In this document: in pieces, positions 5,417 through 16,227 of the stretch
Position numbering within the stretch: the stretch's first letter is position 1
How the letters are laid out: the number at the start of each line of letters is the position of its first letter
NCBI GenBank assembly: GCA_902593165.1
Contig: CACJHI010000005.1
Location: forward strand, 9,238 to 73,237
From: an uncultured Bacteroidota bacterium
GTDB lineage: Bacteria; Bacteroidota; Bacteroidia; Flavobacteriales; Flavobacteriaceae
Reading direction: 5' to 3'
DNA: 64,000 bases
Made by a program: the position numbers and the translations under genes
The notes under the pieces: generated by a model
What the model was told of the DNA's origin: nothing
What the model saw: the letters and a program-made list of their open reading frames with translations, nothing else
The model's database searches: none

Positions 5417-5539
5417 TTATCCTTTCACTTGGTGATCTCCACAAATGTTATTAGCCTCAACTTCAACATTATGTTTTGCACAAACTAATGACTCTGTCAT
5501 ATTTGTACAATTTATACATGTATTAACTGTTTGAATCAT
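5417..5539 (-). CDS. Unannotated 40-aa four-Cys small protein (possibly DUF1540-like)
   Basis: Own translation: MIQTVNTCINCTNMTESLVCAKHNVEVEANNICGDHQVKG, ATG to TAA. Below the ORF-track size cutoff. The pattern C-x2-C...C-A-x-H-x-V-x-V...C resembles DUF1540 repeats. Confidence 0.35.
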   Translation of the reverse strand: MIQTVNTCINCTNMTESLVCAKHNVEVEANNICGDHQVKG

Positions 5540-5584
5540 TTTAAATAATTTTCAATAAAATTAATTCAAAAAACGTTTAGAATG

Positions 5585-5617
5585 ATTTTAAATTACTCAT
5601 TTACAGTAATTTAAAAT
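5585..5617 (-). terminator. AT-rich hairpin just downstream of the ABC ATPase gene; possible terminator of the fbp operon
   Basis: Perfect 13-bp inverted repeat ATTTTAAATTACT / AGTAATTTAAAAT with a 7-nt loop, 27 nt after the stop at 5644. The U-run is displaced about 11 nt, so this is weak. Confidence 0.3.
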
Positions 5618-5643
5618 GATTATAAATAAAGAAATTAATGGGT

Positions 5644-6606
5644 TTAGGTGAAGAAATTACTACATCTTCTATCAAACTCTAAAAGATCACTCTTGTCAAA
5701 ATCAATAAACAAATTATTGGTATCCTTAATTGGTGTTGAATTATAAAAGTATATTTCATCTTTATTTAAGATCCCTTTTATCTTATACTCTTTACCAATA
5801 AATGAGGTCTTTTCAACTTTTAATTTATGTTCTGACTTATCTACAATTTTAATTTTTTCAGGTCTTATATAAAGTTCTTTTCCATCAATATGGATTCTGT
5901 TTAAATCACCTAAAATTTTAGCACAATAACAATTAACTGGATTACAATACATTTCCTCCGGCTTATCATATTGCTGGACTATCCCTGCTTTAAAGACAAG
6001 TATTCTGTCTGAAATATCAAAAGTATCTTTTATATCATGAGTTACTAGAATTGTAGTAGTGTTTGTACTTTTTAATATTTTATATACTTCATTTTGAATT
6101 TTTGATTTAATGCTAACATCCAGATTACTAAACGGTTCATCCATAAGAAGTAGGTCGGGCTCTCTAATCAAGGCTCTTGTTATGCAAACTCTCTGTTGTT
6201 CACCACCAGATAGCTCGTGAGGATATCGATTCAATAAATTATCTAGTCCCGTAAGCTCGACATAATACTCAATATTTTTTTCATATTTTTTTTCCAAGTT
6301 TATTTTCAGGTTTTCAAGAACGCTTAGATGTGGGAAGAGAGGGTAGTCCTGAAAAATAAAACCAATTTTTCTATGATTTGGCATTACAAATGTTGTCTTA
6401 TCATCTAATACCCTATTGTTTAACGTAATTTTTCCAGAATTTATTTTTTCAAGACCTGCTAAACATTTTAAAAAAGTAGTTTTACCAGAACCACTTTCAC
6501 CAATAAAAGAAACAAACTCGCCTTTATTAACAGAAAAGTTTAAATCCTTAATTAATGGATCTTCTTTACTGTAAAACTTAACTAAATTTTCAATGTTAAG
6601 ATACAT
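5644..6606 (-). CDS. fbpC: ABC transporter ATP-binding protein (Fe3+ importer type)
   Basis: Walker A GESGSGKTT, signature LSGGEQQR, Walker B LLLMDEP. Overlaps the permease gene by 11 nt. Confidence 0.8.
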   Translation of the reverse strand: MYLNIENLVKFYSKEDPLIKDLNFSVNKGEFVSFIGESGSGKTTFLKCLAGLEKINSGKITLNNRVLDDKTTFVMPNHRKIGFIFQDYPLFPHLSVLENLKINLEKKYEKNIEYYVELTGLDNLLNRYPHELSGGEQQRVCITRALIREPDLLLMDEPFSNLDVSIKSKIQNEVYKILKSTNTTTILVTHDIKDTFDISDRILVFKAGIVQQYDKPEEMYCNPVNCYCAKILGDLNRIHIDGKELYIRPEKIKIVDKSEHKLKVEKTSFIGKEYKIKGILNKDEIYFYNSTPIKDTNNLFIDFDKSDLLEFDRRCSNFFT

Positions 6607-8176
6607 CTACGCCTTTGTTTATAATTTTCCTCAAAAATATCAATAAAACTGCACCTAGTAAAATAATAATCAAAGAGTATATGGAAGATTTTGCAATCAT
6701 TTCTTCAATTGCATATTCATAAGTCCTAACAGCCAGGGTGTCAAAATTAAAAGGTCTTAGAATTAAAGTAATTGGCAGCTCCTTTATTATATCTACAAAA
6801 CATAAAATAAACGCAATATATATTGAGTTAATGTTTATAGGTAAATGAATTTTTTTAAATAGTTTAAAATTGGTCATTCCTAGATTCTTTCCAGTATCAT
6901 CGAATGTCTCCGGATGTTTATCAAAGCTTGATCTAAGAGGGGATATTCCAACTGCCATATATCTCATTACATAAGCATATACTAATATTATAACTGATCC
7001 AAAAGCTATTGAGACTCCAATTAACTTAGTTAAATATGCTAAAAAAATTATCAGTGATAAAGCAATTACTGCTCCTGGTAAGGCATATGTAAGCGAGACT
7101 ATCTCACTTAGGTAAAAAACAGTTTTACTTTTAGATATCTTTTTTATAAACTGAAAAAAAATTGCAATAGCTACTATTATTAAAGATGAAACTGAAGCTA
7201 AAAAGAATGAGTTTAAAGATAAATTTATTAGCTCTTTAAAGTCTATAATATCTATAGTTTTAAAAACATTATTTATTATGTAAATAACTGGAATAAAGAA
7301 ACCTAAAATAAATGGAAATGAGCAGATTAAATAAATTATTACTCTTGATAATTTATTTGTAGAATAATTACCAGATACATTATCATTTGATTTATAGTTG
7401 TATCTGTATTTGGAAGTTGAGTACCTTTCTAAAATAAAAAAAATAGATACAATAATAAGAAGACAAACAGCTAAAATAGATGCTGTATTTATGTCTTCCA
7501 TTGAGTACCAAGATCTAAATATCCCACTTGTAAAAGTGTTAACTCCAAAGTACTTGACGGCTCCATATTCATTTAGTACTTCCATTATAATTAAAAATAA
7601 ACCTGAAAAAATCGAAACTCTAGATATTGGCAAAATAATCTTGAAAAAAGTTTGAAACTGAGACATTCCAAGATTTTTAGAAATGTTAATATAATTCGAT
7701 CCTAGGAGTGAAAAAGATATTCTACATGCAGTATATAAGTAGGGATATAAAACAAGTGCCATTAGAAATGCCAGAACCTCAATTTGTAAATAATCATGAT
7801 TTACGTACTTATATAGATCAGGGTAATTATTCCTAAAGAGGCTTTGAATAGGACCGGTATAACTTAAAAGGTCACTATATGTAAATGCAATAATATATGA
7901 TGGAATAGCTAAAGGCAAAAATAGCACTAAATCAAAAAAGTTTTTCCCTTTGAAATTTGTTGTGGATACAAACCAAGCAGGAATAATACCAAGTATTAAA
8001 GAAAAAAAAACTGTTAGTGATAAAAGATAAATTGTATTGAGTGAGTAACCCAATAAAAGATTATTCCATAAATAAATAAACGTATCAAGGCTCAGTCCAA
8101 TTACACTATATAAAAGATAGATCAATGGACATAATAAAAAGACAGAAATGATTGATGTTAATAGTTTAACATTCAT
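6596..8176 (-). CDS. fbpB: Fused two-domain ABC permease (Fe3+ importer type)
   Basis: 526 aa, about 12 hydrophobic helices, duplicated permease architecture typical of FbpB/FutB. Confidence 0.75.
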   Translation of the reverse strand: MNVKLLTSIISVFLLCPLIYLLYSVIGLSLDTFIYLWNNLLLGYSLNTIYLLSLTVFFSLILGIIPAWFVSTTNFKGKNFFDLVLFLPLAIPSYIIAFTYSDLLSYTGPIQSLFRNNYPDLYKYVNHDYLQIEVLAFLMALVLYPYLYTACRISFSLLGSNYINISKNLGMSQFQTFFKIILPISRVSIFSGLFLIIMEVLNEYGAVKYFGVNTFTSGIFRSWYSMEDINTASILAVCLLIIVSIFFILERYSTSKYRYNYKSNDNVSGNYSTNKLSRVIIYLICSFPFILGFFIPVIYIINNVFKTIDIIDFKELINLSLNSFFLASVSSLIIVAIAIFFQFIKKISKSKTVFYLSEIVSLTYALPGAVIALSLIIFLAYLTKLIGVSIAFGSVIILVYAYVMRYMAVGISPLRSSFDKHPETFDDTGKNLGMTNFKLFKKIHLPININSIYIAFILCFVDIIKELPITLILRPFNFDTLAVRTYEYAIEEMIAKSSIYSLIIILLGAVLLIFLRKIINKGVDVS

Positions 8177-8194
8177 CGTTGATGCTTTTAGGTT

Positions 8195-9214
8195 CTACTT
8201 CCAACCTCCAGCATCAAATATACGAATTGCGTCATTTCTTTTGACACCTAACATATTCAAGTCAAGTGGGTCTTTTTTAAAAGTACCCCAAGCTTTAACA
8301 ATATCATTTGGCTCAATATTAGGTTTAACAGAATATTCATATGTATTGTTTACATATATTTCTTGAGCCTCATCACTAGTAAGATATTCAATCAGTTTTA
8401 GTGCGTTAGATTTGTTAGGAGCATTTTTTGCAAGAGCAACTCCTGAAACATTTATATGAGATCCTCTTTCTCCATCCCCTTGATTTGGAAAAAATACTGA
8501 AATTGATTTTCCTGCATTTACCTCCTCTTCATTTTCTGATGAAAGTAGAAGCCCTATATAATATGAGTTAACAATAGCAACATCACCTTGACCAGCAGCA
8601 ATTGCTTTTACCTGATCTCTATCATTTCCTTTAGGATCTCTAGCAAAATTTGAAACTACTGCCTTAGTCCAATTTTGTGTTGCATCTTCTCCTAGATTAG
8701 CAACAAGTGATGATAAAAGGGCTTGGTTATATGAATTGGATGATGATCTTACTAAAAGTCTTCCTTTCCACTTTCCATTTGCTAAGTCTTCATATGTAGA
8801 TAGATCACTTTTTTGAACCCTTTCATTACTGTATACAAGAATCCTTGATCTGTACGTGACTGGCACCCAATATCCATTAGGATCAATTAAGCTTTCTGTA
8901 ATTCCATCAGTCAAATTATCATCATTATATTTTTGGAGCAGATCCATATCGGATGCTTGCCATAATTTACCGACGTCAACTGTAATAAATAAATCTGCAG
9001 GACTATTCTCTCCTTCGTTCTTCATCCTTTGAATTAATTCATCAGCATTAGCCTTGATAACATTTACTTTAATACCTGTAATTTTTTCAAAATTATCATA
9101 TTGAATTTGATCAACATCATAGTGTCTCTGACTATACATATTGACAATTTGTTCCGAATTATTATTTGAACAAGCTAAAATAAATAGGGCGAAAAGAGGG
9201 AATAATTTTTTCAT
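8195..9214 (-). CDS. fbpA: Fe(3+) ABC transporter substrate-binding lipoprotein (FbpA/FutA/IdiA type)
   Basis: VNMYSQRHYDVDQIQYDNFEKITGIKVNVIKANADELIQRMKNEGENSPADLFITVDVGKLW matches the FutA/AfuA N-lobe pattern. I prefer the ATG at 9214 (MKKLFPLFALFILAC lipobox) to the TTG at 9235 in the ORF track. Confidence 0.85.
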   Translation of the reverse strand: MKKLFPLFALFILACSNNNSEQIVNMYSQRHYDVDQIQYDNFEKITGIKVNVIKANADELIQRMKNEGENSPADLFITVDVGKLWQASDMDLLQKYNDDNLTDGITESLIDPNGYWVPVTYRSRILVYSNERVQKSDLSTYEDLANGKWKGRLLVRSSSNSYNQALLSSLVANLGEDATQNWTKAVVSNFARDPKGNDRDQVKAIAAGQGDVAIVNSYYIGLLLSSENEEEVNAGKSISVFFPNQGDGERGSHINVSGVALAKNAPNKSNALKLIEYLTSDEAQEIYVNNTYEYSVKPNIEPNDIVKAWGTFKKDPLDLNMLGVKRNDAIRIFDAGGWK

Positions 9215-9256
9215 ATCTGACTTATTAAAGCACAATATTAAAAAAAAATTATTTTT

Positions 9257-9366
9257 ATTTAGACTAATTCTAAATAAATATTTAAATTAGCTCTGAAAAT
9301 AATTTAGAACGGTTCTAAATAATTTAGAAATCAATCAACCATAAACCACTTAGGACCGTTCTAAAT
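9257..9366. promoter_or_regulatory. Array of palindromic operator-like sites (half-site ATTTAGAAC) in the divergent fbpA / DUF4856 promoter region
   Basis: Perfect 19-bp palindrome ATTTAGAACgGTTCTAAAT at 9302-9320. An overlapping inverted arrangement TTCTAAATaATTTAGAA at 9313-9329. Imperfect copies at 9257-9275 and 9348-9366. Confidence 0.5.
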
Positions 9367-9382
9367 GTATTAAACAAATACA

Positions 9383-10621
9383 ATGAAAATTATAAAAAAA
9401 ATTAATCATAAACCAATATTATTTTTATTACTAACATCAATCTTTTTTATGTCATGTTCAAAAGATGATGATATTGAGTATATAACTCAGACAGTAACTG
9501 AAACAGTGGTAGTGACTGAAACACAAACTGTGACTGTTGAAGTTCCTGTTACACAAACTGTGACTGTTGAGATTCCTTACTCTTATGAATTTGCAAGAGC
9601 TGGAAAACCTACTGTTTCTTTTTCAGGACAAACAGCAAGACTTAATATGGCTGATGAGCTTTATTCTGCATTAAATACAAATACATTTTCAAAAGCGAAG
9701 ATGCTTGAGATGTTTAATGACGGAACTGGATTTGCAGACGCAGCACTAAATTCATCTGGTAAAAAGATGGGTAATAAAACAGCTGCTTCACCTTTAGCTT
9801 CAGCTACTGTTAAGCCTCAATTTGATGCAATGATTGCTGATTTTGCAGACAATGTAATTCCTAATTGGGCAACAGATGCATCTAATGGTCAAGCGGGAGT
9901 TTTAACTGATGTTGCTAGAACTATTCATGTAAATGCAAAAGGTCATGAGATTGATCAAACATTTATCAAGGGAATCATTGGAGCAATGACTCTTGATCAA
10001 ATAGTAAATAACTATATAACTCCATATCAATTAGATTCTGGAACTAGAACTGTAGATAACACTAATAAAACATTGTCTACCGGAAAAGACTATACAGACA
10101 TGGAGCACAAATGGGATGAAGGTTTTGGATACCTTTATGGTCAAGAAGTTGATGCTACTAGATTAGATTTAGGTACAACCCCAACTGGTAATGGAACAAC
10201 TCTAAACAAATACTTCAAGAAAGTGAATGCTAGTAGTCATCCAGGAATGGCAATTCAAGTATTTGATGCATTTAGAAGAGGAAGAGCTTACATTGTTGCT
10301 AATCAATATGACAAAAGAGACGAACAAGCAGAAATAATTAAAAAAGAATTATCAAAGCTTATAGCACAGAAAGCTGTTGATTATATTAATGGTTACATGT
10401 CTAAGATTGCGGATGGAAATACAGCTGATGCATTCCATGCTCTATCAGAAGGTTATGGTTTTGTAATGAGTCTTCAGTTCACAAATGACGGAACAGATAC
10501 GCCATATTTCAGTAACTCTGAAGTAAATGCATTCTTAGCTTCTATGGATAATTTCTGGACTGTTGAAAATTCAACTCTTGAGTCTATTAGAGATGAAGTG
10601 AAAGCAAAAGCTGGAATATAA
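9383..10621 (+). CDS. DUF4856-like lipoprotein (imelysin-associated)
   Basis: Lipobox FFMSC, TQTVTVE repeat linker, DMEHKWDEGFGYLYG motif. Canonical position upstream of an imelysin gene in Bacteroidota clusters as I recall them. Confidence 0.55.
   Translation: MKIIKKINHKPILFLLLTSIFFMSCSKDDDIEYITQTVTETVVVTETQTVTVEVPVTQTVTVEIPYSYEFARAGKPTVSFSGQTARLNMADELYSALNTNTFSKAKMLEMFNDGTGFADAALNSSGKKMGNKTAASPLASATVKPQFDAMIADFADNVIPNWATDASNGQAGVLTDVARTIHVNAKGHEIDQTFIKGIIGAMTLDQIVNNYITPYQLDSGTRTVDNTNKTLSTGKDYTDMEHKWDEGFGYLYGQEVDATRLDLGTTPTGNGTTLNKYFKKVNASSHPGMAIQVFDAFRRGRAYIVANQYDKRDEQAEIIKKELSKLIAQKAVDYINGYMSKIADGNTADAFHALSEGYGFVMSLQFTNDGTDTPYFSNSEVNAFLASMDNFWTVENSTLESIRDEVKAKAGI
9521..9580 (+). repeat. 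30-bp x2 tandem repeat encoding the TQTVTVE(V/I)P linker
   Basis: ACACAAACTGTGACTGTTGAAGTTCCTGTT followed by ACACAAACTGTGACTGTTGAGATTCCTTAC. Confidence 0.85.
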
Positions 10622-10663
10622 AATTTTAGCTATTTAGTTCTTTAATCAATAAGTGAGTTTTTT

Positions 10664-10697
10664 AAATCAGTGGGGTTCTTTATCCCACTGATTTTTT
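10664..10697 (+). terminator. Rho-independent terminator/attenuator between the DUF4856 and imelysin genes
   Basis: 11-bp stem AAATCAGTGGG / CCCACTGATTT, 9-nt loop, running into a T-tract. Confidence 0.7.
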
Positions 10698-10711
10698 AAA
10701 TTTTAAAAAAA

Positions 10712-11947
10712 ATGAAACATCTATATATTAAAATTTTTCTTGCCGTACTTGTAATAGTATCATGTAGTAAGGACTCTGATGAAGATTATGGTCAAAATAG
10801 TTCTCAGAGTAATGTTCAGACAACTACAAATAATTCTACTGGTTCAACAACTGGTACCTCAACTAGTACTTCAACTGGTAACTCTACTAGTACTTCAACT
10901 GGTAACTCTACTAGCACCTCTTCAAGTCAAGGAGACACTTTTGATAGAGGTTCCATTTTAGCAAACTATTCTGAGAATATAATTATACCAAGATATAATA
11001 CATTCAAAACATCTATGGATAACCTTAAGAATAGTATTGAGACTTTTGTTAATTCTCCTAATTCTGATAATTATGATGCACTTCAAAGTGACTGGATAGA
11101 TTCATATAAAAAATGGCAATATGTTGAAGTTTTTAATATTAGTAAAGCAGAAGAAATTATGTATGGATTAAAAATGAACACCTACCCAGTTAGTAAAGAA
11201 AGAACTGATAATAATATTGATGAAGGAAAAACAGATCTTACAAATCCCAATGACTGGTCAGCCCAAGGTTTTCCTGGACTAGATTATATGCTTCACGGAA
11301 TTGGTGAAACAAAAGATGCTGTAATTGAACTATACAATTCAGAATCAAAATATGGTAATTATTTACTCACTTTAGGTTCTGTAATGAATGAAAATACCAT
11401 CCAGGTAGTTGATGATTGGACAACATATAAAGATGTATTTAATTCCTCTTTTAATAATACTGCTACATCAGCATTCAATATGATGGTCAATGACTTTGTA
11501 TATTATTTTGAAAAAGGTTTAAGAACTAATAAAATTGGTATTCCTGCCGGAAGGTTCTCTTCTACTCCACTTCCTGATAAAATTGAAGCTTATTATTACT
11601 CAAAAAACTCTTTTGGAAATCTTTCAAAAACTCTTGCTCTAGAAGCAAGAAAAGGAGCTGAAGAGTTATTTCTTGGTCTCAATTCTGATGGTGTTGAAGG
11701 TCCAAGTTATAAATCCTATCTAGACTATCTTGAAACAGAAATAGGGACTAATGTTAAAACAAAATTGGAGGAAGCTAGTATACGAATAGATGATTTACAA
11801 GATAATTTCTTAACTCAAATTGCAGAAAACAACACCTTGATGCTCGTTGCTTTTGATGCGCTTCAAACAATTGTTGTAAATTTAAAAACTGACATGTTAT
11901 CTAACTTTAATATTGCCGTTGACTATACTGATGCAGATGGTGATTAA
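10712..11947 (+). CDS. Imelysin-like (Peptidase_M75 / IrpA-like) lipoprotein
   Basis: Lipobox IVSC, Ser/Thr/Gly/Asn linker, then imelysin-like blocks (ILANYSENIIIPRY, WIDSYKKWQYVEVF, GFPGLDYMLHG). Confidence 0.6.
   Translation: MKHLYIKIFLAVLVIVSCSKDSDEDYGQNSSQSNVQTTTNNSTGSTTGTSTSTSTGNSTSTSTGNSTSTSSSQGDTFDRGSILANYSENIIIPRYNTFKTSMDNLKNSIETFVNSPNSDNYDALQSDWIDSYKKWQYVEVFNISKAEEIMYGLKMNTYPVSKERTDNNIDEGKTDLTNPNDWSAQGFPGLDYMLHGIGETKDAVIELYNSESKYGNYLLTLGSVMNENTIQVVDDWTTYKDVFNSSFNNTATSAFNMMVNDFVYYFEKGLRTNKIGIPAGRFSSTPLPDKIEAYYYSKNSFGNLSKTLALEARKGAEELFLGLNSDGVEGPSYKSYLDYLETEIGTNVKTKLEEASIRIDDLQDNFLTQIAENNTLMLVAFDALQTIVVNLKTDMLSNFNIAVDYTDADGD
10862..10920 (+). repeat. 24-bp tandem repeat (2 full copies plus a partial one) encoding the TSTSTGNS linker
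   Basis: ACTAGTACTTCAACTGGTAACTCT twice, then ACTAGCACCTC. Confidence 0.85.
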
Positions 11948-11960
11948 CTAAAATATATCA

Positions 11961-13316
11961 TTGAATATTTCGAAATATTTAAATAAAGAACAAGACTCTT
12001 CAAGCCTAGCAATTTTTCGACTAGGCTTTGGTTTTTTAATGCTCTATAGTACAATAAGAATTTGGGGAAAAGGATGGATTAGGGAGTTATATATCGATCC
12101 ATCATTTCACTTCTCGTATTATGGCTTTGAATGGGTAAAACCAATTGGAGACTATACTTATTTAATCTTTTTAGTATGTGCAATATCATCATTTTTTGTA
12201 GCAATTGGATATAAATATAGAATCTCAATTATTTTACTCTTCTTAAGCTTTACATATGCAGAGTTAATGGATAAAACAACTTATCTTAACCATTATTATC
12301 TGGTTAGCCTGATAAGTTTTCTAATGATCTTTTTTCCCGCAAATGCAAAGTTTTCAATAGATAATTTAATTAGTAAAAAATCATATGTGTTTATCCCCAA
12401 ATGGAATGTAGATGCCTTAAAATTAATGATCTGTATAGTATACTTTTATGCAGGAATTGCAAAGATTAATAGTGATTGGCTTATTGATGCTCAACCATTA
12501 AAAATCTGGTTAACATCTAAATATGATCTTCCAATTTTTGGCAGCACATTATTTCAGATGGATTGGGTTCATGTTTTTTTTAGTTGGGCTGGTATGCTTT
12601 ATGATCTCTTAATTGCATTCATTTTATTATATAGAAAGACAAGACCATTTGGGTTTTTTCTTGTAATAACTTTTCATATTATGACAGCGATTCTTTTCCC
12701 TGCAATAGGCATGTTCCCTTACATAATGATTACATCTTCTGTAATATTTTTAGAACCTGAAACTCATAAAAAAATATTAGATAGAGTTTCTTCTATATTT
12801 AGAAAATACTTCCAAAAAGTGACTATTATATCAAATTATAATTTCAAAAAAGCTAAATTTTCTCAAGCTATTCTAGTTATTTTCTTTTCTATCCAGTTAC
12901 TTTTTCCATTTAGATATTTTCTTTACCCTGGAGAATTATTTTGGAATGAACAGGGATATAGATTCTCATGGAGAGTTATGCTTATAGAGAAGAAAGGTTT
13001 CACAGAGTTTAAAATAGTTGACGGAGTAACATCAGAATCATTTTATGTTTTAAATGAAGAGTTTTTAACTGAGTTTCAAGAAAGACAGATGAGTTTTCAA
13101 CCAGATTTTATTCTTGAATATGCACATTATCTTGGTGACTATTATAATAATAATGGATATAATAATGTTGAAGTTTATGCAGAGAGTTATGTGACATTAA
13201 ATGGAAGAAAAAGTAAAGTATTTGTTGATCCAAACATTGACTTAATGAAAGAAGAAAGAGGCTTTTCAAACAAAGAATGGATAACAGAATTAGAAAATGA
13301 AATTAAAGGCTTTTAA
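11961..13316 (+). CDS. HTTM domain membrane protein (vitamin K-dependent gamma-carboxylase fold)
   Basis: 451 aa, TTG start. N-terminal SLAIFRLGFGFLMLYSTIRIW and multiple TM helices typical of HTTM, plus a soluble C-terminal domain. Confidence 0.7.
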   Translation: MNISKYLNKEQDSSSLAIFRLGFGFLMLYSTIRIWGKGWIRELYIDPSFHFSYYGFEWVKPIGDYTYLIFLVCAISSFFVAIGYKYRISIILLFLSFTYAELMDKTTYLNHYYLVSLISFLMIFFPANAKFSIDNLISKKSYVFIPKWNVDALKLMICIVYFYAGIAKINSDWLIDAQPLKIWLTSKYDLPIFGSTLFQMDWVHVFFSWAGMLYDLLIAFILLYRKTRPFGFFLVITFHIMTAILFPAIGMFPYIMITSSVIFLEPETHKKILDRVSSIFRKYFQKVTIISNYNFKKAKFSQAILVIFFSIQLLFPFRYFLYPGELFWNEQGYRFSWRVMLIEKKGFTEFKIVDGVTSESFYVLNEEFLTEFQERQMSFQPDFILEYAHYLGDYYNNNGYNNVEVYAESYVTLNGRKSKVFVDPNIDLMKEERGFSNKEWITELENEIKGF

Positions 13317-15723
13317 AATATTAATTATTCTATGTTTTAACTCATTATCCTCTCAGGAGAATTTAAGTGGAGTTATTATAAGTGAATCAACTAGTCTACC
13401 ACTTGAAAATGTAACAATTTTCAACTCTGACACAAATGAAATCTCTTATAGTGATTATGAGGGTAAGTTTACTATTTCAATAAATAATATTGATTCAGAA
13501 ATAAACTTTTTCCTTGAAGGATATAATCTTTTATCTGAAATTTTCAGTCCTCAAGTTTCAGAATCTAATAATGTCACCACTATTAGGTTGGTTCCAAGAA
13601 TTGAGGAATTAAATGAAGTTGTGGTAAGGTCAAATCTAAAAAAGATTTTCCAAATTAAAAGATTTCAGGATATTGAGGGAACAAGAATATATGCTGGGAA
13701 AAAGAATGAGGTGATTCTTATTGATGTGTCAATGGCAAATCTTGCATCAAATAATGCTCGTCAAATTTATAATCAGATTCCAGGACTTAATATCTATCAA
13801 AATGATGATGCTGGACTTCAACTTAATATAGGCGGAAGAGGACTTAATCCAAATAGAACCGCTAATTTTAATACAAGACAAAATAATTATGATATCAGTG
13901 CAGATGCATTAGGGTATCCTGAAAGTTATTATACTCCTCCACCAGAAGGTCTTGAGGAAATTCAAATATTAAGGGGTGCAGCTTCACTCCAATATGGAAC
14001 TCAATTTGGTGGGCTTATTAATTTTAAAATCAAGAAACCCAAACCTGAGGAAAGATATGAGCTTATAACAAGAAATACTGCTGGTTCAAATAATCTATTT
14101 ACAAATTTTACTAGCATTAGCTCAAGCAAAGAAAAATCCAGTTACTATGGATATGTCAATTATAAAATAGGTGATGGTTTTAGACCTAATTCAGAGTTTG
14201 AATCAATAAATACCTTTCAAAATTTTAACTACAACTTAAGTGATAAATCAAATATAACAGCAGAGATAACATATATGGAATACCTTGCTCATCAAGCAGG
14301 TGGACTTTCAGATTTTATGTTTGCTAATGATCCTTTTCAAAGTAATAGAGAGAGAAATTGGTTTGAAATAAAATGGTTTTTATATAATCTAAAATATTTA
14401 CTTGAAATTTCAGAAGATTCAAGCTTTAGCTTCAGTTTTTTTGGTTTGGATGCTGCAAGAAATTCATTAGGTTTTAGGACAAATAGAGTTGATCAAATTG
14501 ATTATGGTGAAGAAAGAGATTTGATTAAAGGGGACTTTAAAAATTATGGTTTTGAATCAAGATATGTAACCAGCTTTAATTTTTTAAATAAAAAATCTTA
14601 TTTATTATTAGGAGCTAAATACTACAATTCATTTTCCAAAAGTGTTCAAGGTCCAGGAAGTAGTTCAAAGGATGCTGATTTTAATTTTGATTATATAAAT
14701 TTCCCAAACTATGTAAATCAATCTGAGTACAGTTATCCTAATAATAATTTGGCAATCTTTGGTGAAAATATTTTTTATATAAATGAAAGTTTATCCATAA
14801 CACCTGGGTTTAGGTTTGAGAACATAAATACTAGTCTAGATGGTTACTACAGAAAAATTAATCTAGATGCTGCAGGTAACACAATTTATAATGAAAGATT
14901 TGATGAAGAGGATACCAAGAAAAGAAAGTTTCTATTACTTGGTTTAGGACTTAGTTACAAAAAAAGGGGGCTTGAATTATATACAAATATCAGTCAAAAC
15001 TTTAGATCTGTAACATTTGCAGATATAAGTATTAATAACCCTGCTTATGCTATAAATCCTAATATTGATGATGAGAAAGGGTTTACATTTGATATAGGTT
15101 TTAGAGGAAACTATAAAAAAATGATTTCCTTTGACTCTAGTATTTTTGCACTTATATATAGAGACAGGATTGGGTTTATCCAAAAAGTATTTAGTGATGG
15201 TAATGTGAAGAGTGAGAGAGGTAATGTAGGGAATGCCCAAATAACAGGTGTTGAATCTTTATTTGATTTTGATATAAATGAAATTCTATTTAAAAATGAA
15301 GATGTAGATTTTAATATTTTTTTTAATTTTTCTTATATAGAATCTAAATATTTAAAATCTAATGAAGTAGGAATAACAGGAAAAGTAGTTGAATTTGTTC
15401 CTAAAAATAATTTTAAAACAGGTTTAAAATTTGGTTATAAAGATTTTGCAATTAATTTTCAATATTCATACCTGTCAAGTCAATTTACAGACTCTTCAAA
15501 TGCTATATCAGGAAATCTAAGTGGAGTAATTGGTCAAATTCCTTCCTATGAAATTTCTGATTTATCAATGTCATACAAACTAAGAAACATTAAATTTGAA
15601 GCTGGAGTCAATAATTTATTTGATGAAATATATTTTACAAGAAGAGCAACAGGATATCCTGGCCCCGGAATAATTCCTTCTCCTCCAAGAAATAGTTATA
15701 TAACTCTAGAAATCAAACTATGA
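13297..15723 (+). CDS. TonB-dependent outer-membrane receptor with an N-terminal CarboxypepD_reg-like domain
   Basis: 808 aa with signal peptide. GVIISESTSLPLENVTIF (carboxypeptidase-regulatory-like), plug (RGAASLQYGTQFGG) and beta-barrel repeats. Overlaps the HTTM gene by 20 nt. Confidence 0.85.
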   Translation: MKLKAFKILIILCFNSLSSQENLSGVIISESTSLPLENVTIFNSDTNEISYSDYEGKFTISINNIDSEINFFLEGYNLLSEIFSPQVSESNNVTTIRLVPRIEELNEVVVRSNLKKIFQIKRFQDIEGTRIYAGKKNEVILIDVSMANLASNNARQIYNQIPGLNIYQNDDAGLQLNIGGRGLNPNRTANFNTRQNNYDISADALGYPESYYTPPPEGLEEIQILRGAASLQYGTQFGGLINFKIKKPKPEERYELITRNTAGSNNLFTNFTSISSSKEKSSYYGYVNYKIGDGFRPNSEFESINTFQNFNYNLSDKSNITAEITYMEYLAHQAGGLSDFMFANDPFQSNRERNWFEIKWFLYNLKYLLEISEDSSFSFSFFGLDAARNSLGFRTNRVDQIDYGEERDLIKGDFKNYGFESRYVTSFNFLNKKSYLLLGAKYYNSFSKSVQGPGSSSKDADFNFDYINFPNYVNQSEYSYPNNNLAIFGENIFYINESLSITPGFRFENINTSLDGYYRKINLDAAGNTIYNERFDEEDTKKRKFLLLGLGLSYKKRGLELYTNISQNFRSVTFADISINNPAYAINPNIDDEKGFTFDIGFRGNYKKMISFDSSIFALIYRDRIGFIQKVFSDGNVKSERGNVGNAQITGVESLFDFDINEILFKNEDVDFNIFFNFSYIESKYLKSNEVGITGKVVEFVPKNNFKTGLKFGYKDFAINFQYSYLSSQFTDSSNAISGNLSGVIGQIPSYEISDLSMSYKLRNIKFEAGVNNLFDEIYFTRRATGYPGPGIIPSPPRNSYITLEIKL

Positions 15724-16121
15724 GTAAAAGCTTAAATAATGAGATTATAATTTATGATGGTATATGTGTGCTATGTAATTACTTTATTCAATTTATTTTA
15801 GAAAAAGATAGAAAGGCTCATTTTAAAGTAACAAATCTTCAAAGTGAATTTACAAAAACAAAATATCCAAAAATTCTAGCTGTTGATTCAGTTGCAGTTA
15901 TTTTGGAAAATGGAAAAATTTTGCAAAAAAGTAAAGCAGTTTACTACATTTTACAAAAAATTAAAGTCTTACTATTAATCAGAGTTTTAATTTATGTTTT
16001 TCCAACATTTTTTTCAAATATAGTCTATGACTTTATTGCTCTGATTAGATACAAATTATTTGGAAAATACTCCTATTGTCCCGTACTCAAAGGGGATTTA
16101 AAAAATAGAATAATTGAATAA
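15720..16121 (+). CDS. DCC-family thiol-disulfide oxidoreductase (DUF393)
   Basis: IIYDGICVLCNYFIQFIL (D-x-x-C-x-x-C motif) and a hydrophobic C-terminal segment. ATGA overlap with the receptor gene. Confidence 0.7.
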   Translation: MSKSLNNEIIIYDGICVLCNYFIQFILEKDRKAHFKVTNLQSEFTKTKYPKILAVDSVAVILENGKILQKSKAVYYILQKIKVLLLIRVLIYVFPTFFSNIVYDFIALIRYKLFGKYSYCPVLKGDLKNRIIE

Positions 16122-16227
16122 GAAAAACTTATGAACCTATAACGATATTTTTTAATTACTATTTAGAATAAATCTATATTAAACAAAGGAACTTCAAACA
16201 ATACTTTTAGAACCTTAAGCGTTATTA

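What the first reader, a model, noticed from the sequence alone, without database searches (positions are those of the whole stretch)
9383..16121. Five-gene DUF4856 / imelysin / HTTM / TonB-receptor / DCC cluster: an uncharacterised envelope system with a vitamin-K-carboxylase-fold core
Five same-strand genes are tightly coupled (20-nt and 4-nt overlaps at 13297 and 15720). They encode two periplasm-facing lipoproteins (DUF4856-like, imelysin-like), a polytopic HTTM protein, a TonB-dependent receptor and a DxxCxxC DCC-family thiol-disulfide oxidoreductase. HTTM is the fold of the eukaryotic vitamin-K-dependent gamma-glutamyl carboxylase, which works with a thiol oxidoreductase (VKOR). Flavobacteriia use menaquinone, a vitamin K2. 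The HTTM + DCC pair could therefore be a quinone-driven modification or redox module acting on the co-encoded lipoproteins or on the imported substrate. Imelysin-like proteins are linked to iron uptake (EfeO/IrpA relatives). At the position where I expect the imelysin GxHxxE motif, this protein reads GFPGLDYMLHG, so the metal site may be non-canonical. A terminator-like hairpin (10664-10697) after the first gene suggests differential expression. The position between an Fe3+ importer and the heme operon argues for iron or heme acquisition, but no component has a defined mechanism.
Basis: partly seen in the sequence, partly recalled or inferred. Interest (0 to 1): 0.7.

Follow-up and report, generated by a model that had tools for sequence, protein, structure and literature searches.

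The report
Iron-uptake cassette with vitamin-K-type carboxylase
These genes form an iron-starvation cassette found in hundreds of marine Flavobacteria, and its bacterial relative of the human vitamin-K-dependent carboxylase sits next to an imelysin-like iron-uptake lipoprotein even in unrelated phyla, which points to that lipoprotein as a testable partner for an enzyme family with no known bacterial protein target.

Summary
All five genes, both overlaps, the hairpin and the quoted motif are present as described.

- **Core and accessory genes.** The conserved unit has four genes: DUF4856 lipoprotein, imelysin-like lipoprotein, HTTM/VKGC-type membrane enzyme and TonB-dependent receptor. They keep this order in all 80 related Flavobacteriales loci, as far as each contig reaches. 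The DCC gene follows in only 8 of 80.
- **Iron control.** Three operators matching the EMSA-supported Riemerella Fur box lie in the promoter shared with a FutA-type Fe3+ ABC importer. Similar sites precede the cassette in 61 of 63 loci. The Riemerella orthologues are iron- and Fur-regulated.
- **The enzyme.** It keeps every human GGCX residue for quinol deprotonation, CO2 binding and carboxylate anchoring. It lacks the Gla-handling residues and the C-terminal clamp.
- **Its partner.** In high-GC metagenomic loci an IPPA-type imelysin lipoprotein gene is still adjacent in 6 of 11 look-ups.
- **DCC link.** One relative carries a DCC domain inserted in the loop that is cytoplasmic in human GGCX.
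- **Location.** DUF4856 carries a surface-export signal, so "periplasm-facing" is probably wrong. Its confident model has no PDB match.

Best reading: a Fur-repressed ferric-iron uptake system whose menaquinol-dependent carboxylase modifies the imelysin-like partner. The modification is inferred, not shown.

The parts
9257..9366 (.). Three 19-bp Fur-box-like palindromes (9257-9275, 9302-9320, 9348-9366) in the 147-nt promoter region shared by futA (- strand) and the cassette (+ strand).
   Evidence: They show 1, 0 and 2 mismatches in the 16 specified positions of the R. anatipestifer Fur box ATTTAGAATTATTCTAAAT. That consensus and its EMSA support come from PMC5609570. Equivalent sites precede DUF4856 in 61 of 63 loci, at 5.24 per kb against 0.10 per kb elsewhere in the loci.
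9383..10621 (+). DUF4856 lipoprotein (412 aa), predicted surface-exposed. Proposed to be the abundant Fe(III)-capturing component.
   Evidence: Pfam DUF4856 7e-93. Lipobox followed by C-S-K-D-D-D, which fits the C-X-K-(D/E)2 export signal. 55 of 58 orthologues have at least two D/E at positions +2 to +6. Remote FEA1_rel_lipo match in 18 of 47 members. AlphaFold2 model pLDDT 88 with no PDB fold match. Invariant E241-H242-x-x-D245-E246 and H352-x-x-S355-E356.
10664..10704 (+). Intra-operon stem-loop with a T-rich tail after the first gene. It could be a partial terminator or an mRNA stabiliser.
   Evidence: 13-bp stem found by the scan. A comparable hairpin with a T-run, differing in sequence, sits at the same junction in 56 of 63 loci.
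10712..11947 (+). Imelysin-like lipoprotein (411 aa) of the IPPA/PA4372 'GxxxxE' type, with an S/T/G/N-rich linker.
   Evidence: Peptidase_M75 1e-25. PDB relatives 3n8u, 3pf0 and 4ecg. G-F-P-x-x-D with D191 invariant, and a C-terminal D-x-D-G-D. The type classification follows PMC3143127.
11961..13316 (+). [quoted passage not shown]
   Evidence: Pfam 1e-78 and 5e-57. Human GGCX 1.5e-47 over residues 54-505. The equivalents of N159, H160, K218, W223, D263, F299, W390 and W399 are invariant in 77 orthologues.
13297..15723 (+). TonB-dependent outer-membrane receptor (808 aa), overlapping the HTTM gene by 20 nt.
   Evidence: CarboxypepD_reg, Plug and barrel domains. The nearest solved structure is FecA at 2e-20. 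The overlap of 20 or 23 nt is kept in most loci.
15720..16121 (+). DCC1-like thiol-disulfide oxidoreductase (133 aa), a lineage-specific accessory gene that is probably cytoplasmic or membrane-associated.
   Evidence: Pfam 1e-18. No signal peptide, CxxC at residues 16-19, and a hydrophobic helix at about residues 76-103. It follows the receptor gene in only 8 of 80 loci. A DCC domain is inserted in the HTTM protein P0505.
5644..9235 (-). Divergent FutABC-type Fe3+ ABC importer: binding protein 8195-9235, permease 6596-8176, ATPase 5644-6606. Proposed to carry out the periplasm-to-cytoplasm leg.
   Evidence: Pfam domains. The binding protein matches FutA/IdiA structures 6g7n at 3e-95 and 2pt1 at 3e-93. 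An Fe3+ ABC operon adjoins the cassette in 14 of 80 loci, in four different arrangements.

Best explanation
The cluster is the local version of a conserved, Fur-repressed ferric-iron acquisition cassette of Flavobacteriales.

1. When iron is scarce, Fur leaves the three operators shared with the divergent futABC importer.
2. The first gene encodes a DUF4856 lipoprotein, a remote FEA1 relative. The hairpin that follows it would allow this gene to be expressed in excess. Its export signal sends it to the cell surface, where it is proposed to bind Fe(III).
3. The IPPA-type imelysin-like lipoprotein and the FecA-like TonB-dependent receptor complete the outer-membrane part.
4. FutA and FutBC take the iron across the periplasm and the inner membrane.
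5. [quoted passage not shown] It most likely uses menaquinol, O2 and CO2/bicarbonate to carboxylate one or more acidic residues of the imelysin-like lipoprotein while that protein is still tethered to the inner membrane. This would create a stronger metal-chelating site.
6. The DCC protein, where present, works at the cytoplasmic face of the same enzyme, for example to supply reducing equivalents or to recycle the oxidised quinone.

**Shown:** the gene content, order and conservation; the Fur boxes; the catalytic-residue conservation; the HTTM-imelysin and HTTM-DCC linkage.

**Inferred:** the iron species taken up, the surface location, the carboxylation itself and its target, and the role of DCC.
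For: - **Core conserved.** The order DUF4856, imelysin-like, HTTM, receptor holds in all 80 loci as far as the contigs reach, although the flanks differ.
- **Iron control.** The Fur boxes match the EMSA-supported Riemerella consensus. RAYM_09779 to RAYM_09794 (receptor, 'vitamin K-dependent gamma-carboxylase', imelysin, hypothetical protein) are induced about 2 to 3 log2 by low iron and by fur deletion. Sites lie upstream in 61 of 63 loci, about 50-fold above the rate elsewhere in the loci.
- **Importer.** The neighbour is FutA-type, and such an ABC operon recurs next to the cassette in different arrangements.
- **Enzyme.** E = 1.5e-47 to human GGCX. K218, W223, D263, F299, N159 and H160 are invariant in 77 orthologues. 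K218, D263, F299, N159 and H160 are at least 90% conserved, and W223 invariant, among 135 representatives of 32-58% identity. Residue roles are taken from PMC12647623.
- **Partner.** A Peptidase_M75 gene directly adjoins the HTTM gene in 6 of 11 distant look-ups, on contigs of GC 0.59-0.75. These include M75-DHOR-DHOR-M75-HTTM operons. The adjacent copy is always the His-less IPPA type and a lipoprotein.
- **DCC.** A DCC1-like domain is inserted between the HTTM and lumenal domains of P0505. A C-terminal HTTM-DCC fusion is reported in a preprint.
- **Surface signal and stoichiometry.**
Against: - No experiment shows carboxylation by any member of this subfamily. From my own knowledge (Rishavy et al. 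2005, J Biol Chem, not read here), the Leptospira orthologue epoxidised vitamin K but did not carboxylate the substrates tested.
- The residues that hold Gla in the human enzyme are not kept: R406 is variable, R436 is Q and H440 is Q. Y395 is F in 14 of 77 orthologues. The protein ends at about human residue 505, so the second half of the propeptide clamp is missing.
- No propeptide-like or Glu-rich segment is conserved in either lipoprotein. The TVTE-rich linker is lineage-specific.
- Three distant HTTM genes have neither an imelysin nor a receptor gene beside them.
- DCC is absent from 72 of 80 loci.
- The export signal of the imelysin-like protein is weaker: 47 of 67 have two D/E at +2 to +6.
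- Recombinant imelysin-like proteins did not bind Fe3+ or heme in thermofluor assays (PMC3143127), so their ligand is unknown.
- The receptor's nearest solved structure is FecA, which could mean a chelate rather than free Fe(III).
Confidence: 0.45

Rival explanations
1. The HTTM protein is a menaquinol oxygenase or epoxidase that no longer carboxylates proteins. It would contribute a redox or oxygen-dependent step to iron handling, alongside or instead of the di-haem DHOR/EfeB-type enzymes that accompany imelysin proteins elsewhere. Examples would be controlling the Fe(II)/Fe(III) state or destroying an organic iron ligand in the periplasm.
For: - Imelysin-type clusters normally include a redox enzyme (PMC3143127). 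In the flavobacterial cassette that position is taken by HTTM.
- Some loci add a CxxCH Haem_bd protein.
- Gla-handling residues and the clamp are missing.
- From my own knowledge, the Leptospira orthologue was reported as epoxidase-only.
Against: - The CO2-stacking F299 and the carboxylate-binding N159 and H160 are invariant. That would be unnecessary for a pure epoxidase.
- HTTM and DHOR coexist in the same operon in L091 and L092, so HTTM is not simply a DHOR substitute.
Confidence: 0.2
2. The HTTM enzyme carboxylates a small molecule rather than a protein, as MloH does in malonomycin biosynthesis. It might make or alter a low-molecular-weight chelator, or process the ligand brought in by the receptor.
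For: - MloH is the only bacterial homologue with a demonstrated carboxylase activity, and it acts on a small-molecule intermediate.
- The receptor is FecA-like.
- There is no propeptide clamp and no conserved Glu-rich substrate segment.
Against: - No biosynthetic genes (NRPS, PKS or siderophore synthetases) accompany the cassette in any of the 80 loci.
- The conserved neighbour across phyla is a lipoprotein, not an enzyme.
Confidence: 0.15
3. The DCC gene is only a neighbour that ended up between the receptor gene and hemA in streamlined marine genomes, with no role in the cassette.
For: - It is present in only 8 of 80 loci.
- The DCC family is broad, and I know of no link to vitamin K. This rests on my own knowledge.
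Against: - The 4-nt ATGA overlap with the receptor gene.
- It keeps this position in loci whose flanks differ, for example L011, L059 and L072.
- DCC domains are fused to HTTM proteins in two separate architectures.
Confidence: 0.25
4. The cassette imports heme or another metal rather than ferric iron.
For: - It lies next to the heme-biosynthesis operon in 7 loci.
- Fur also controls heme-uptake genes in Riemerella.
Against: - There is no HmuY-like or other hemophore gene.
- The recurrent inner-membrane partner is a FutA-type Fe3+ system.
- The neighbouring hem genes are biosynthetic.
- Imelysin-like proteins did not bind heme.
Confidence: 0.07

Closest known systems
Riemerella anatipestifer RAYM_09779 to RAYM_09794 (TonB-dependent receptor, 'vitamin K-dependent gamma-carboxylase', imelysin lipoprotein, hypothetical protein)
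   Same: The annotated products are the same kinds, listed in the reverse order, and the organism is another Flavobacteriales family. All four are induced by iron restriction and by fur deletion, and the Fur-box consensus is the same (PMC5609570).
   Different: They are known only as rows in an RNA-seq table, with no functional study and no comment on the carboxylase. No DCC gene is listed. I did not compare the sequences directly.
Fur-regulated imelysin clusters: P. aeruginosa PA4370-PA4373, V. cholerae VC1264-1266, Leptospira LruB locus, and EfeUOB
   Same: They contain an IPPA/PA4372-type 'GxxxxE' imelysin-like lipoprotein, are iron-regulated, and pair the imelysin protein with an extracytoplasmic enzyme (PMC3143127).
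   Different: Those clusters use a canonical GxHxxE imelysin plus a di-haem DHOR/DUF1111 or DyP enzyme. Here the first protein is DUF4856, which has no detectable imelysin homology, and the enzyme is a VKGC homologue. Bridging forms that carry both enzymes exist in other phyla.
[quoted passage not shown]
   Same: HTTM plus lumenal domain, E = 1.5e-47. The quinol-deprotonation triad, the CO2 pocket and the Glu-carboxylate ligands are conserved. A thiol oxidoreductase is associated with the enzyme.
   Different: The protein has 451 rather than 758 residues, with no clamp B or C-terminal region. The Gla-binding R406 and H440 and R436 are not kept. The quinone would be menaquinone. The associated oxidoreductase is DCC1-like and probably cytoplasmic, not VKOR. 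The substrate is unknown.
MloH, the vitamin-K-dependent-carboxylase-like enzyme of malonomycin biosynthesis (Streptomyces)
   Same: It is a bacterial HTTM-type enzyme with demonstrated carboxylase chemistry (cited).
   Different: It sits in a PKS-NRPS biosynthetic cluster and acts on a small-molecule aspartyl intermediate. It has no iron-uptake context.
Neisseria TbpAB-FbpABC, and algal FEA1/ISIP2a phytotransferrin-type surface iron capture
   Same: The logic is the same: a surface-exposed binding protein, a TonB-dependent receptor, and an FbpA/FutA-type ferric shuttle. DUF4856 shows a remote match to FEA1-related lipoproteins.
   Different: There is no homology to TbpB. The FEA1 match (28 bits) is far below the family cut-off of 250 bits. 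Iron binding by DUF4856 is untested.

Membership tests
[quoted passage not shown] | HTTM membrane domain followed by the VKGC lumenal domain | tested here: met
   PF05090 1.3e-78 and PF22777 5.3e-57. phmmer to human GGCX chains gives 1.5e-47 over query residues 6-444 against human residues 54-505.
[quoted passage not shown] | Quinol-deprotonation site: K218 stacked on W223, with D263 beside it | tested here: met
   K168, W173 and D215 are invariant in 77 orthologues. W223 is invariant, and K218 and D263 at least 90% conserved, among 135 diverse representatives. Residue roles are from PMC12647623.
[quoted passage not shown] | CO2 pocket (F299) and substrate-carboxylate ligands (N159, H160, Y395) | tested here: met
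   F252, N110 and H111 are invariant. The Y395 equivalent is Y in 63 and F in 14 of 77 orthologues.
[quoted passage not shown] | Residues that accommodate Gla and the peptide backbone (R406, H440, R436) | tested here: not met
   The R406 position is A, M, K or R. R436 is Q (75 of 77) and H440 is Q (77 of 77).
[quoted passage not shown] | Complete propeptide clamp, including the clamp B/bridge helix around R513 and the C-terminal region | tested here: not met
   The alignment ends at human residue 505 and the protein has 451 residues. Nothing corresponds to human residues 506-758.
[quoted passage not shown] | Same three-dimensional fold | tested here: inconclusive
   The AlphaFold2 model built from the 12-sequence alignment had pLDDT 47.9. 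That is too poor for a fold comparison.
[quoted passage not shown] | Quinol-, O2- and CO2-dependent carboxylation of a Glu (or Asp) substrate | not testable with these tools
   This needs enzymology or mass spectrometry.
Imelysin-like superfamily (Peptidase_M75), IPPA/PA4372 family | Imelysin domain made of two four-helix bundles | tested here: met
   PF09375 9.5e-26 over residues 91-378. Sequence matches to 3n8u, 3pf0 and 4ecg.
Imelysin-like superfamily (Peptidase_M75), canonical imelysin/IrpA/EfeO families | GxHxxE motif | tested here: not met
   The motif reads G-F-P-G-L-D. The Pro aligns with Pro194 of IPPA (PMC3143127). The acid is D in the flavobacterial set and E in the other phyla. The second imelysin gene of the mixed operons, not adjacent to HTTM, has H.
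Imelysin-like superfamily (Peptidase_M75), IPPA/PA4372 family | GxxxxE variant motif, lipoprotein signal and iron-regulated operon | tested here: met
   The G-x-x-x-x-(D/E) acid is invariant. The lipobox Cys is conserved. Fur boxes are present.
TonB-dependent receptors | N-terminal plug plus 22-strand barrel domain, signal peptide, aromatic C-terminus | tested here: met
   Plug and TonB_dep_Rec_b-barrel with an extra CarboxypepD_reg domain. TIGR01783 and FecA models match below their cut-offs. FecA structures match at 2e-20. The TonB box was not examined.
DCC1-like thiol-disulfide oxidoreductases | DCC1-like domain with an N-terminal DxxCxxC | tested here: met
   PF04134 1.1e-18. Y-D-G-I-C-V-L-C is at residues 12-19, and the motif is kept in all 8 orthologues.
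Flavobacterial Fur regulon | 19-bp Fur box ATTTAGAATTATTCTAAAT within about 100-150 bp of the start codon | tested here: met
   Three sites with 0-2 mismatches lie 35-126 bp upstream of DUF4856. None of 100 shuffles of the window reached the observed count. Binding by Fur was not tested for this promoter.
FEA1-related lipoproteins (NF038033) | Score above the curated family cut-off | tested here: not met
   28.1 bits against a cut-off of 250. 18 of 47 DUF4856 members match at E <= 0.01, best 4e-9. This is a remote relationship only.
Surface-exposed Bacteroidetes lipoproteins | Lipoprotein export signal C-X-K-(D/E)2 or S-D-D-D-D-like directly after the lipidated Cys | tested here: met
   The window DUF4856 has C-S-K-D-D-D. 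55 of 58 DUF4856 orthologues and 47 of 67 imelysin-like orthologues have at least two D/E at +2 to +6. The signal is defined in PMC5080379. Actual exposure was not tested.

The most novel reading that the evidence does not exclude
Bacterial homologues of the vitamin-K-dependent carboxylase are maturation enzymes for iron-uptake lipoproteins. Using menaquinol, they would convert Glu or Asp residues of IPPA-type imelysin-like proteins, and perhaps of DUF4856, into malonate-type residues such as Gla that chelate Fe(III).

If so, this would give the first physiological protein substrate of a prokaryotic VKGC. It would explain why unmodified recombinant imelysin-like proteins bind no metal. It would also suggest that vitamin-K-dependent carboxylation arose in bacterial metal acquisition, with DCC-type thiol oxidoreductases as an alternative to VKOR.
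Probability: 0.3. Interest if true: 0.9.

Novelty: new variant of a known kind. Interest (0 to 1): 0.72.

Why it matters
To my knowledge, what the many bacterial homologues of the vitamin-K-dependent carboxylase do has been open since they were noticed about twenty years ago. This search found 4,964 clusters at 50% identity with E <= 0.001. Only one bacterial member, MloH, has a known substrate, and that substrate is a small molecule.

The conserved pairing with an imelysin-like lipoprotein, under Fur control and beside a TonB-dependent receptor, names concrete candidate substrates and a phenotype to test.

The result also bears on iron uptake by abundant marine Flavobacteria. The closest relatives in the protein and genome searches come from marine metagenomes, including Tara Oceans, and from uncultured single-cell and metagenome-assembled genomes. 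It suggests a function for DUF4856, a family with no PDB fold match in this search. It may also explain why imelysin-like proteins have resisted biochemical characterisation.

Tried and rejected
- **DUF4856 as a diverged imelysin.** Rejected. hhalign between the two family alignments matched only the signal peptide and export signal. A PDB profile search found nothing. Foldseek with a confident model gave a best E of 0.77.
- **The TVTE-rich N-terminal linker of DUF4856 as a Gla-type substrate segment.** Rejected, because it occurs only in the window's own lineage and a few others.
- **DCC as a core partner.** Rejected, because it is present in 8 of 80 loci.
- **Fold-level confirmation of the HTTM protein.** Failed. 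The model had pLDDT 47.9 from a 12-sequence alignment, and no prediction jobs remained.
- **My own narrow DCC HMM.** It barely detected the fused DCC domain (E = 0.025). Pfam detected it clearly.
- **Literature searches.** 'HTTM' with 'imelysin', and 'DUF4856' alone, returned no papers.
- **Mutant studies in related bacteria.** The F. psychrophilum BfpR/HfpR paper and the R. anatipestifer B739_1343 paper could not be tied to this cassette.
- **Other recurrent neighbours.** HMG-CoA-lyase-like, IMP-dehydrogenase-like, dihydroorotate-dehydrogenase-like and peptidase-T-like genes look like housekeeping synteny. I assigned them by eye from the sequences, not with a tool.

Full report
**1.

Five + strand ORFs occupy 9383-10621, 10712-11947, 11961-13316, 13297-15723 and 15720-16121. 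The stated overlaps of 20 nt and 4 nt are correct.

Pfam assigns the five proteins as follows:
- DUF4856 (7e-93)
- Peptidase_M75/imelysin (1e-25)
- HTTM (1e-78) plus VKGC_lumenal_dom (5e-57)
- CarboxypepD_reg, Plug and TonB-dependent barrel
- DCC1-like (1e-18, motif D-G-I-C-V-L-C)

The hairpin is found at 10664-10694, with 13 pairs and a T-rich tail. The string QGFPGLDYMLHG is present.

Upstream and divergent lies an Fe3+ ABC importer. Downstream lie hemA, hemC, hemD, hemB, hemL and hemE, which are heme biosynthesis genes.

The window is about 30% GC. Its closest relatives are uncultured marine Flavobacteriales single-cell and metagenome-assembled genomes. The nearest is L001 at 96% identity, and L003 is labelled 'Cryomorphaceae bacterium MED-G11'.

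**2. The conserved unit has four genes, not five**

I scanned one genome per species with an HTTM alignment.

In every locus with enough flank the order is DUF4856, imelysin-like, HTTM, receptor, all on one strand. The surroundings differ between lineages. Some have the Fe3+ ABC operon and hemA. Others have housekeeping-looking neighbours, which I assigned by eye.

The DCC gene follows the receptor gene in only 8 of 80 loci (L001-L005, L011, L059, L072). Other lineages carry different small genes near the cassette:
- a CxxCH Haem_bd protein in 12 loci
- a 40-residue Cys-rich ORF in 10 loci

An Fe3+ ABC operon adjoins the cassette in 14 loci, in four different arrangements.

The HTTM and receptor genes overlap by 20 or 23 nt in most loci.

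**3. The cassette is under Fur control**

The 147-nt region between futA and DUF4856 holds three 19-bp palindromes: ATTTAGACTAATTCTAAAT, ATTTAGAACGGTTCTAAAT and ACTTAGGACCGTTCTAAAT. None of 100 shuffles of the window gave as many matches.

They match the Riemerella anatipestifer Fur box ATTTAGAATTATTCTAAAT. That consensus was predicted from Fur-regulated promoters, and Fur bound four of those promoters in EMSA (PMC5609570).

[quoted passage not shown] I did not compare those sequences with the window directly.

Across my loci, 61 of 63 have at least one such site within 300 nt upstream of DUF4856. There are usually two, near -95 and -30. The density is 5.24 per kb against 0.10 per kb elsewhere in the loci. 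I did not run a separate control for AT-rich intergenic DNA.

**4. The first gene is set apart by a hairpin**

A strong stem-loop with a T-run (most between -12 and -22 kcal/mol) lies between DUF4856 and the imelysin-like gene in 56 of 63 loci. The sequences are unrelated between loci.

Structure kept while sequence drifts suggests selection for a partial terminator or a stabiliser. Either would let the first gene be expressed more highly than the rest.

**5. The two lipoproteins**

*Surface signal.* Both proteins have a lipobox. The window DUF4856 continues C-S-K-D-D-D, which fits the optimal C-X-K-(D/E)2 surface-export signal of Capnocytophaga. Orthologues mostly read C-S-S-D-D-D, like the Bacteroides signal SDDDD and the Flavobacterium signal SDDFE (PMC5080379).
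- 55 of 58 DUF4856 orthologues have at least two acidic residues at positions +2 to +6.
- 47 of 67 imelysin-like orthologues do.

DUF4856 is therefore probably surface-exposed. The imelysin-like protein is likely to be so, with less certainty.

*DUF4856.*
- It has no sequence relative in the PDB.
- Its AlphaFold2 model is confident (pLDDT 88, pTM 0.85) and mainly helical. Foldseek finds no PDB match, with a best E of 0.77.
- Profile comparison with the imelysin family aligns only the signal peptide.
- It has a consistent remote match to NCBIfam 'FEA1-related lipoprotein'. This is 28 bits against a cut-off of 250 for the window protein, and 18 of 47 family members match.
- Algal FEA1 and ISIP2a are cell-surface ferric-iron-concentrating proteins (PMC7676907).
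- The invariant motifs are T-x-M-E-H-K-W-D-E-x-x-G-Y and H-x-x-S-E-x-x-G-F, plus several invariant Arg, Lys and Tyr. That composition would suit a metal or oxyanion site. This is inference.

*Imelysin-like protein.* Its 'non-canonical' G-F-P-G-L-D aligns with Q-G-I-P-G-L-E of Psychrobacter IPPA (PDB 3pf0). Xu et al. defined the IPPA/PA4372 family by exactly this loss of His ('GxxxxE'), and those proteins are also Fur-controlled (PMC3143127). The acid is invariant in my set, and the C-terminus ends in a conserved D-x-D-G-D.

**6. The HTTM protein looks like a working carboxylase core with a different substrate**

It matches human GGCX at 1.5e-47 over human residues 54-505. I took residue roles from a cryo-EM study (PMC12647623).

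| Human residue | Role | Window position | Conservation in 77 orthologues |
|---|---|---|---|
| K218 | catalytic base | K168 | invariant |
| W223 | stacks on K218 | W173 | invariant |
| D263 | beside K218 | D215 | invariant |
| F299 | holds CO2 | F252 | invariant |
| N159, H160 | bind the substrate carboxylate | N110, H111 | invariant |
| Y395 | binds the substrate carboxylate | Y333 | Y in 63, F in 14 |
| R406 | holds Gla | K345 | variable (A, M, K, R) |
| R436 | binds the peptide backbone | Q376 | Q in 75 |
| H440 | holds Gla | Q380 | Q in 77 |

- W223 is invariant, and K218, D263, F299, N159 and H160 are at least 90% conserved, in 135 representatives of 32-58% identity.
- The protein stops where the second half of the human propeptide clamp begins.
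- That paper already shows the Kordia algicida orthologue in a conservation figure. I assume this is the protein at locus L006, which is 60% identical to the window's, but I did not check it. Catalytic conservation in Flavobacteria is therefore not new.
- The family is large: 4,964 clusters at 50% identity with E <= 0.001, and 1,672 with E <= 1e-30.

**7. The enzyme's conserved partner is the imelysin-like lipoprotein**

I looked up the contigs of 11 distant representatives (33-49% identity).

| Result | Representative and locus |
|---|---|
| Peptidase_M75 gene directly adjacent | P0369 (L083), P0387 (L084, L085), P0428 (L087), P0410 (L093) |
| HTTM convergent with an M75-DHOR-M75 operon | P0378 (L086) |
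| M75-DHOR-DHOR-M75-HTTM operon | P0462 (L091, L092) |
| TonB-dependent receptor gene ends 8 nt upstream | P0392 (L089) |
| Neither an imelysin nor a receptor gene adjacent | P0362 (L082), P0453 (L088), P0505 (L081) |
| Contig cut, uninformative | P0436 (L090) |

- The measured contigs (L081-L088) have GC 0.37-0.75, and those with an adjacent M75 gene have 0.59-0.75. By composition they are not close relatives of the 30%-GC window organism.
- In the five full-length cases the adjacent imelysin is a lipoprotein of the His-less IPPA type.
- The second imelysin of the mixed operons, which is not adjacent to HTTM, has the canonical His.
- Peptidase_M75 is an uncommon family, so 6 of 11 adjacencies cannot be chance.
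- No paper in the searchable library mentions HTTM together with imelysin, or mentions DUF4856 at all.

**8. The DCC link is real but accessory**

- P0505 (37% identical to the window HTTM) has a DCC1-like domain (5.8e-17, Y-D-G-E-C-R-F-C) inserted between the HTTM and lumenal domains. From my own knowledge, this loop is cytoplasmic in human GGCX.
- Of the 20 longest representatives scanned against Pfam, only P0505 carried a DCC domain.
- A recent preprint reports a different fusion, with DCC C-terminal to HTTM, in Melghirimyces.
- The window DCC has no signal peptide, has its CxxC at residues 16-19, and has one hydrophobic helix.
- DCC therefore probably serves the enzyme from the cytoplasmic side. 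How it does so is open.

**9. Proposed mechanism and its weak points**

The iron-uptake frame is well supported: Fur control, a surface lipoprotein, a receptor and FutABC. The binding protein matches FutA/IdiA structures at 3e-95, and the receptor's nearest solved structure is FecA at 2e-20.

The step that makes the system unusual is that the HTTM enzyme carboxylates its imelysin-like neighbour at the periplasmic face of the inner membrane. That step is inferred from residue conservation and gene linkage only.

Points against it:
- The missing clamp and Gla-handling residues.
- No conserved Glu-rich segment in either lipoprotein.
- The reported epoxidase-only behaviour of the Leptospira orthologue (my own knowledge, not read here).
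- The HTTM genes that lack an imelysin neighbour.

A redox-only role and a small-molecule substrate, as for MloH, are the main rivals.

**10. Novelty and verdict**

The genes are annotated in many genomes, and the Riemerella orthologues appear in a Fur-regulon table. The components and the iron link are therefore known.

I found three things described nowhere in the searchable library:
- The four-gene cassette as a conserved unit.
- The linkage of VKGC-type enzymes with IPPA-type imelysin lipoproteins on contigs of very different base composition.
- DCC as a fused partner of a VKGC-type enzyme that also carries the lumenal domain.

This is a new variant of a known kind of system. It turns an old open question, what bacterial vitamin-K-carboxylase homologues do, into a directly testable one.

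Noticed in passing
window 5417-5539 (- strand), with Fur-box-like sites at 5575-5593 and 5609-5627: A 40-residue Cys-rich ORF (MIQTVNTCINCTNMTESLVCAKHNVEVEANNICGDHQVKG) has no Pfam match and two Fur-box-like sites just upstream. Homologues occur in 10 of 80 related loci. Four lie beside the Fe3+ ABC ATPase gene and six lie directly downstream of the cassette's receptor gene. It may be another small accessory component of the iron system.
   Followed up: partly
window 16161-16179, upstream of hemA (16273): A Fur-box-like site (2 mismatches) lies between the DCC gene and hemA. Similar sites precede hemA in L001, L003, L004 and L005. In L059, L067 and L072, hemA is divergent from DUF4856 and shares its Fur-box region. 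Heme biosynthesis may be iron- or Fur-controlled in these streamlined genomes.
   Followed up: partly
related loci, e.g. L008 13772-14227, L048 6980-7462: A 152-residue membrane-anchored CxxCH protein (Pfam Haem_bd, 8.5e-49) lies directly after the receptor gene or directly before DUF4856 in 12 of 80 loci. In these loci it takes the accessory position that DCC holds in the window.
   Followed up: partly
L091 2684-10587 and L092: On these contigs the HTTM gene is the fifth gene of a Peptidase_M75, DHOR, DHOR, Peptidase_M75, HTTM operon. It is followed by DUF2249 and CREG/DUF2470-like genes. This links the classical imelysin-DHOR clusters with the HTTM type.
   Followed up: no
P0438 (709 aa) and L081 2730-3449: One HTTM plus lumenal protein carries a C-terminal TPR array. 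A separate TPR protein is encoded directly after the HTTM-DCC fusion gene. This hints at a recurrent TPR partner in some lineages.
   Followed up: no
window 9383-10621, residues 33-65; window 10712-11947, residues about 28-72: DUF4856 has a T/V/E/Q-rich repeat (TQTVTETVVVTETQTVTVEVPVTQTVTVEIP) that the model builds as a long beta-hairpin. It is found only in the window's lineage and a few others. The imelysin-like protein has an S/T/G/N low-complexity linker, which produced a sub-threshold Pfam 'New_glue' match that is probably compositional.
   Followed up: partly
L003 (Cryomorphaceae MED-G11 MAG) about 7454-9983: In this close relative the DUF4856 ORF is truncated to 262 residues and the imelysin-like ORF has an in-frame stop. 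This is either an assembly error or decay of the two lipoprotein genes.
   Followed up: no
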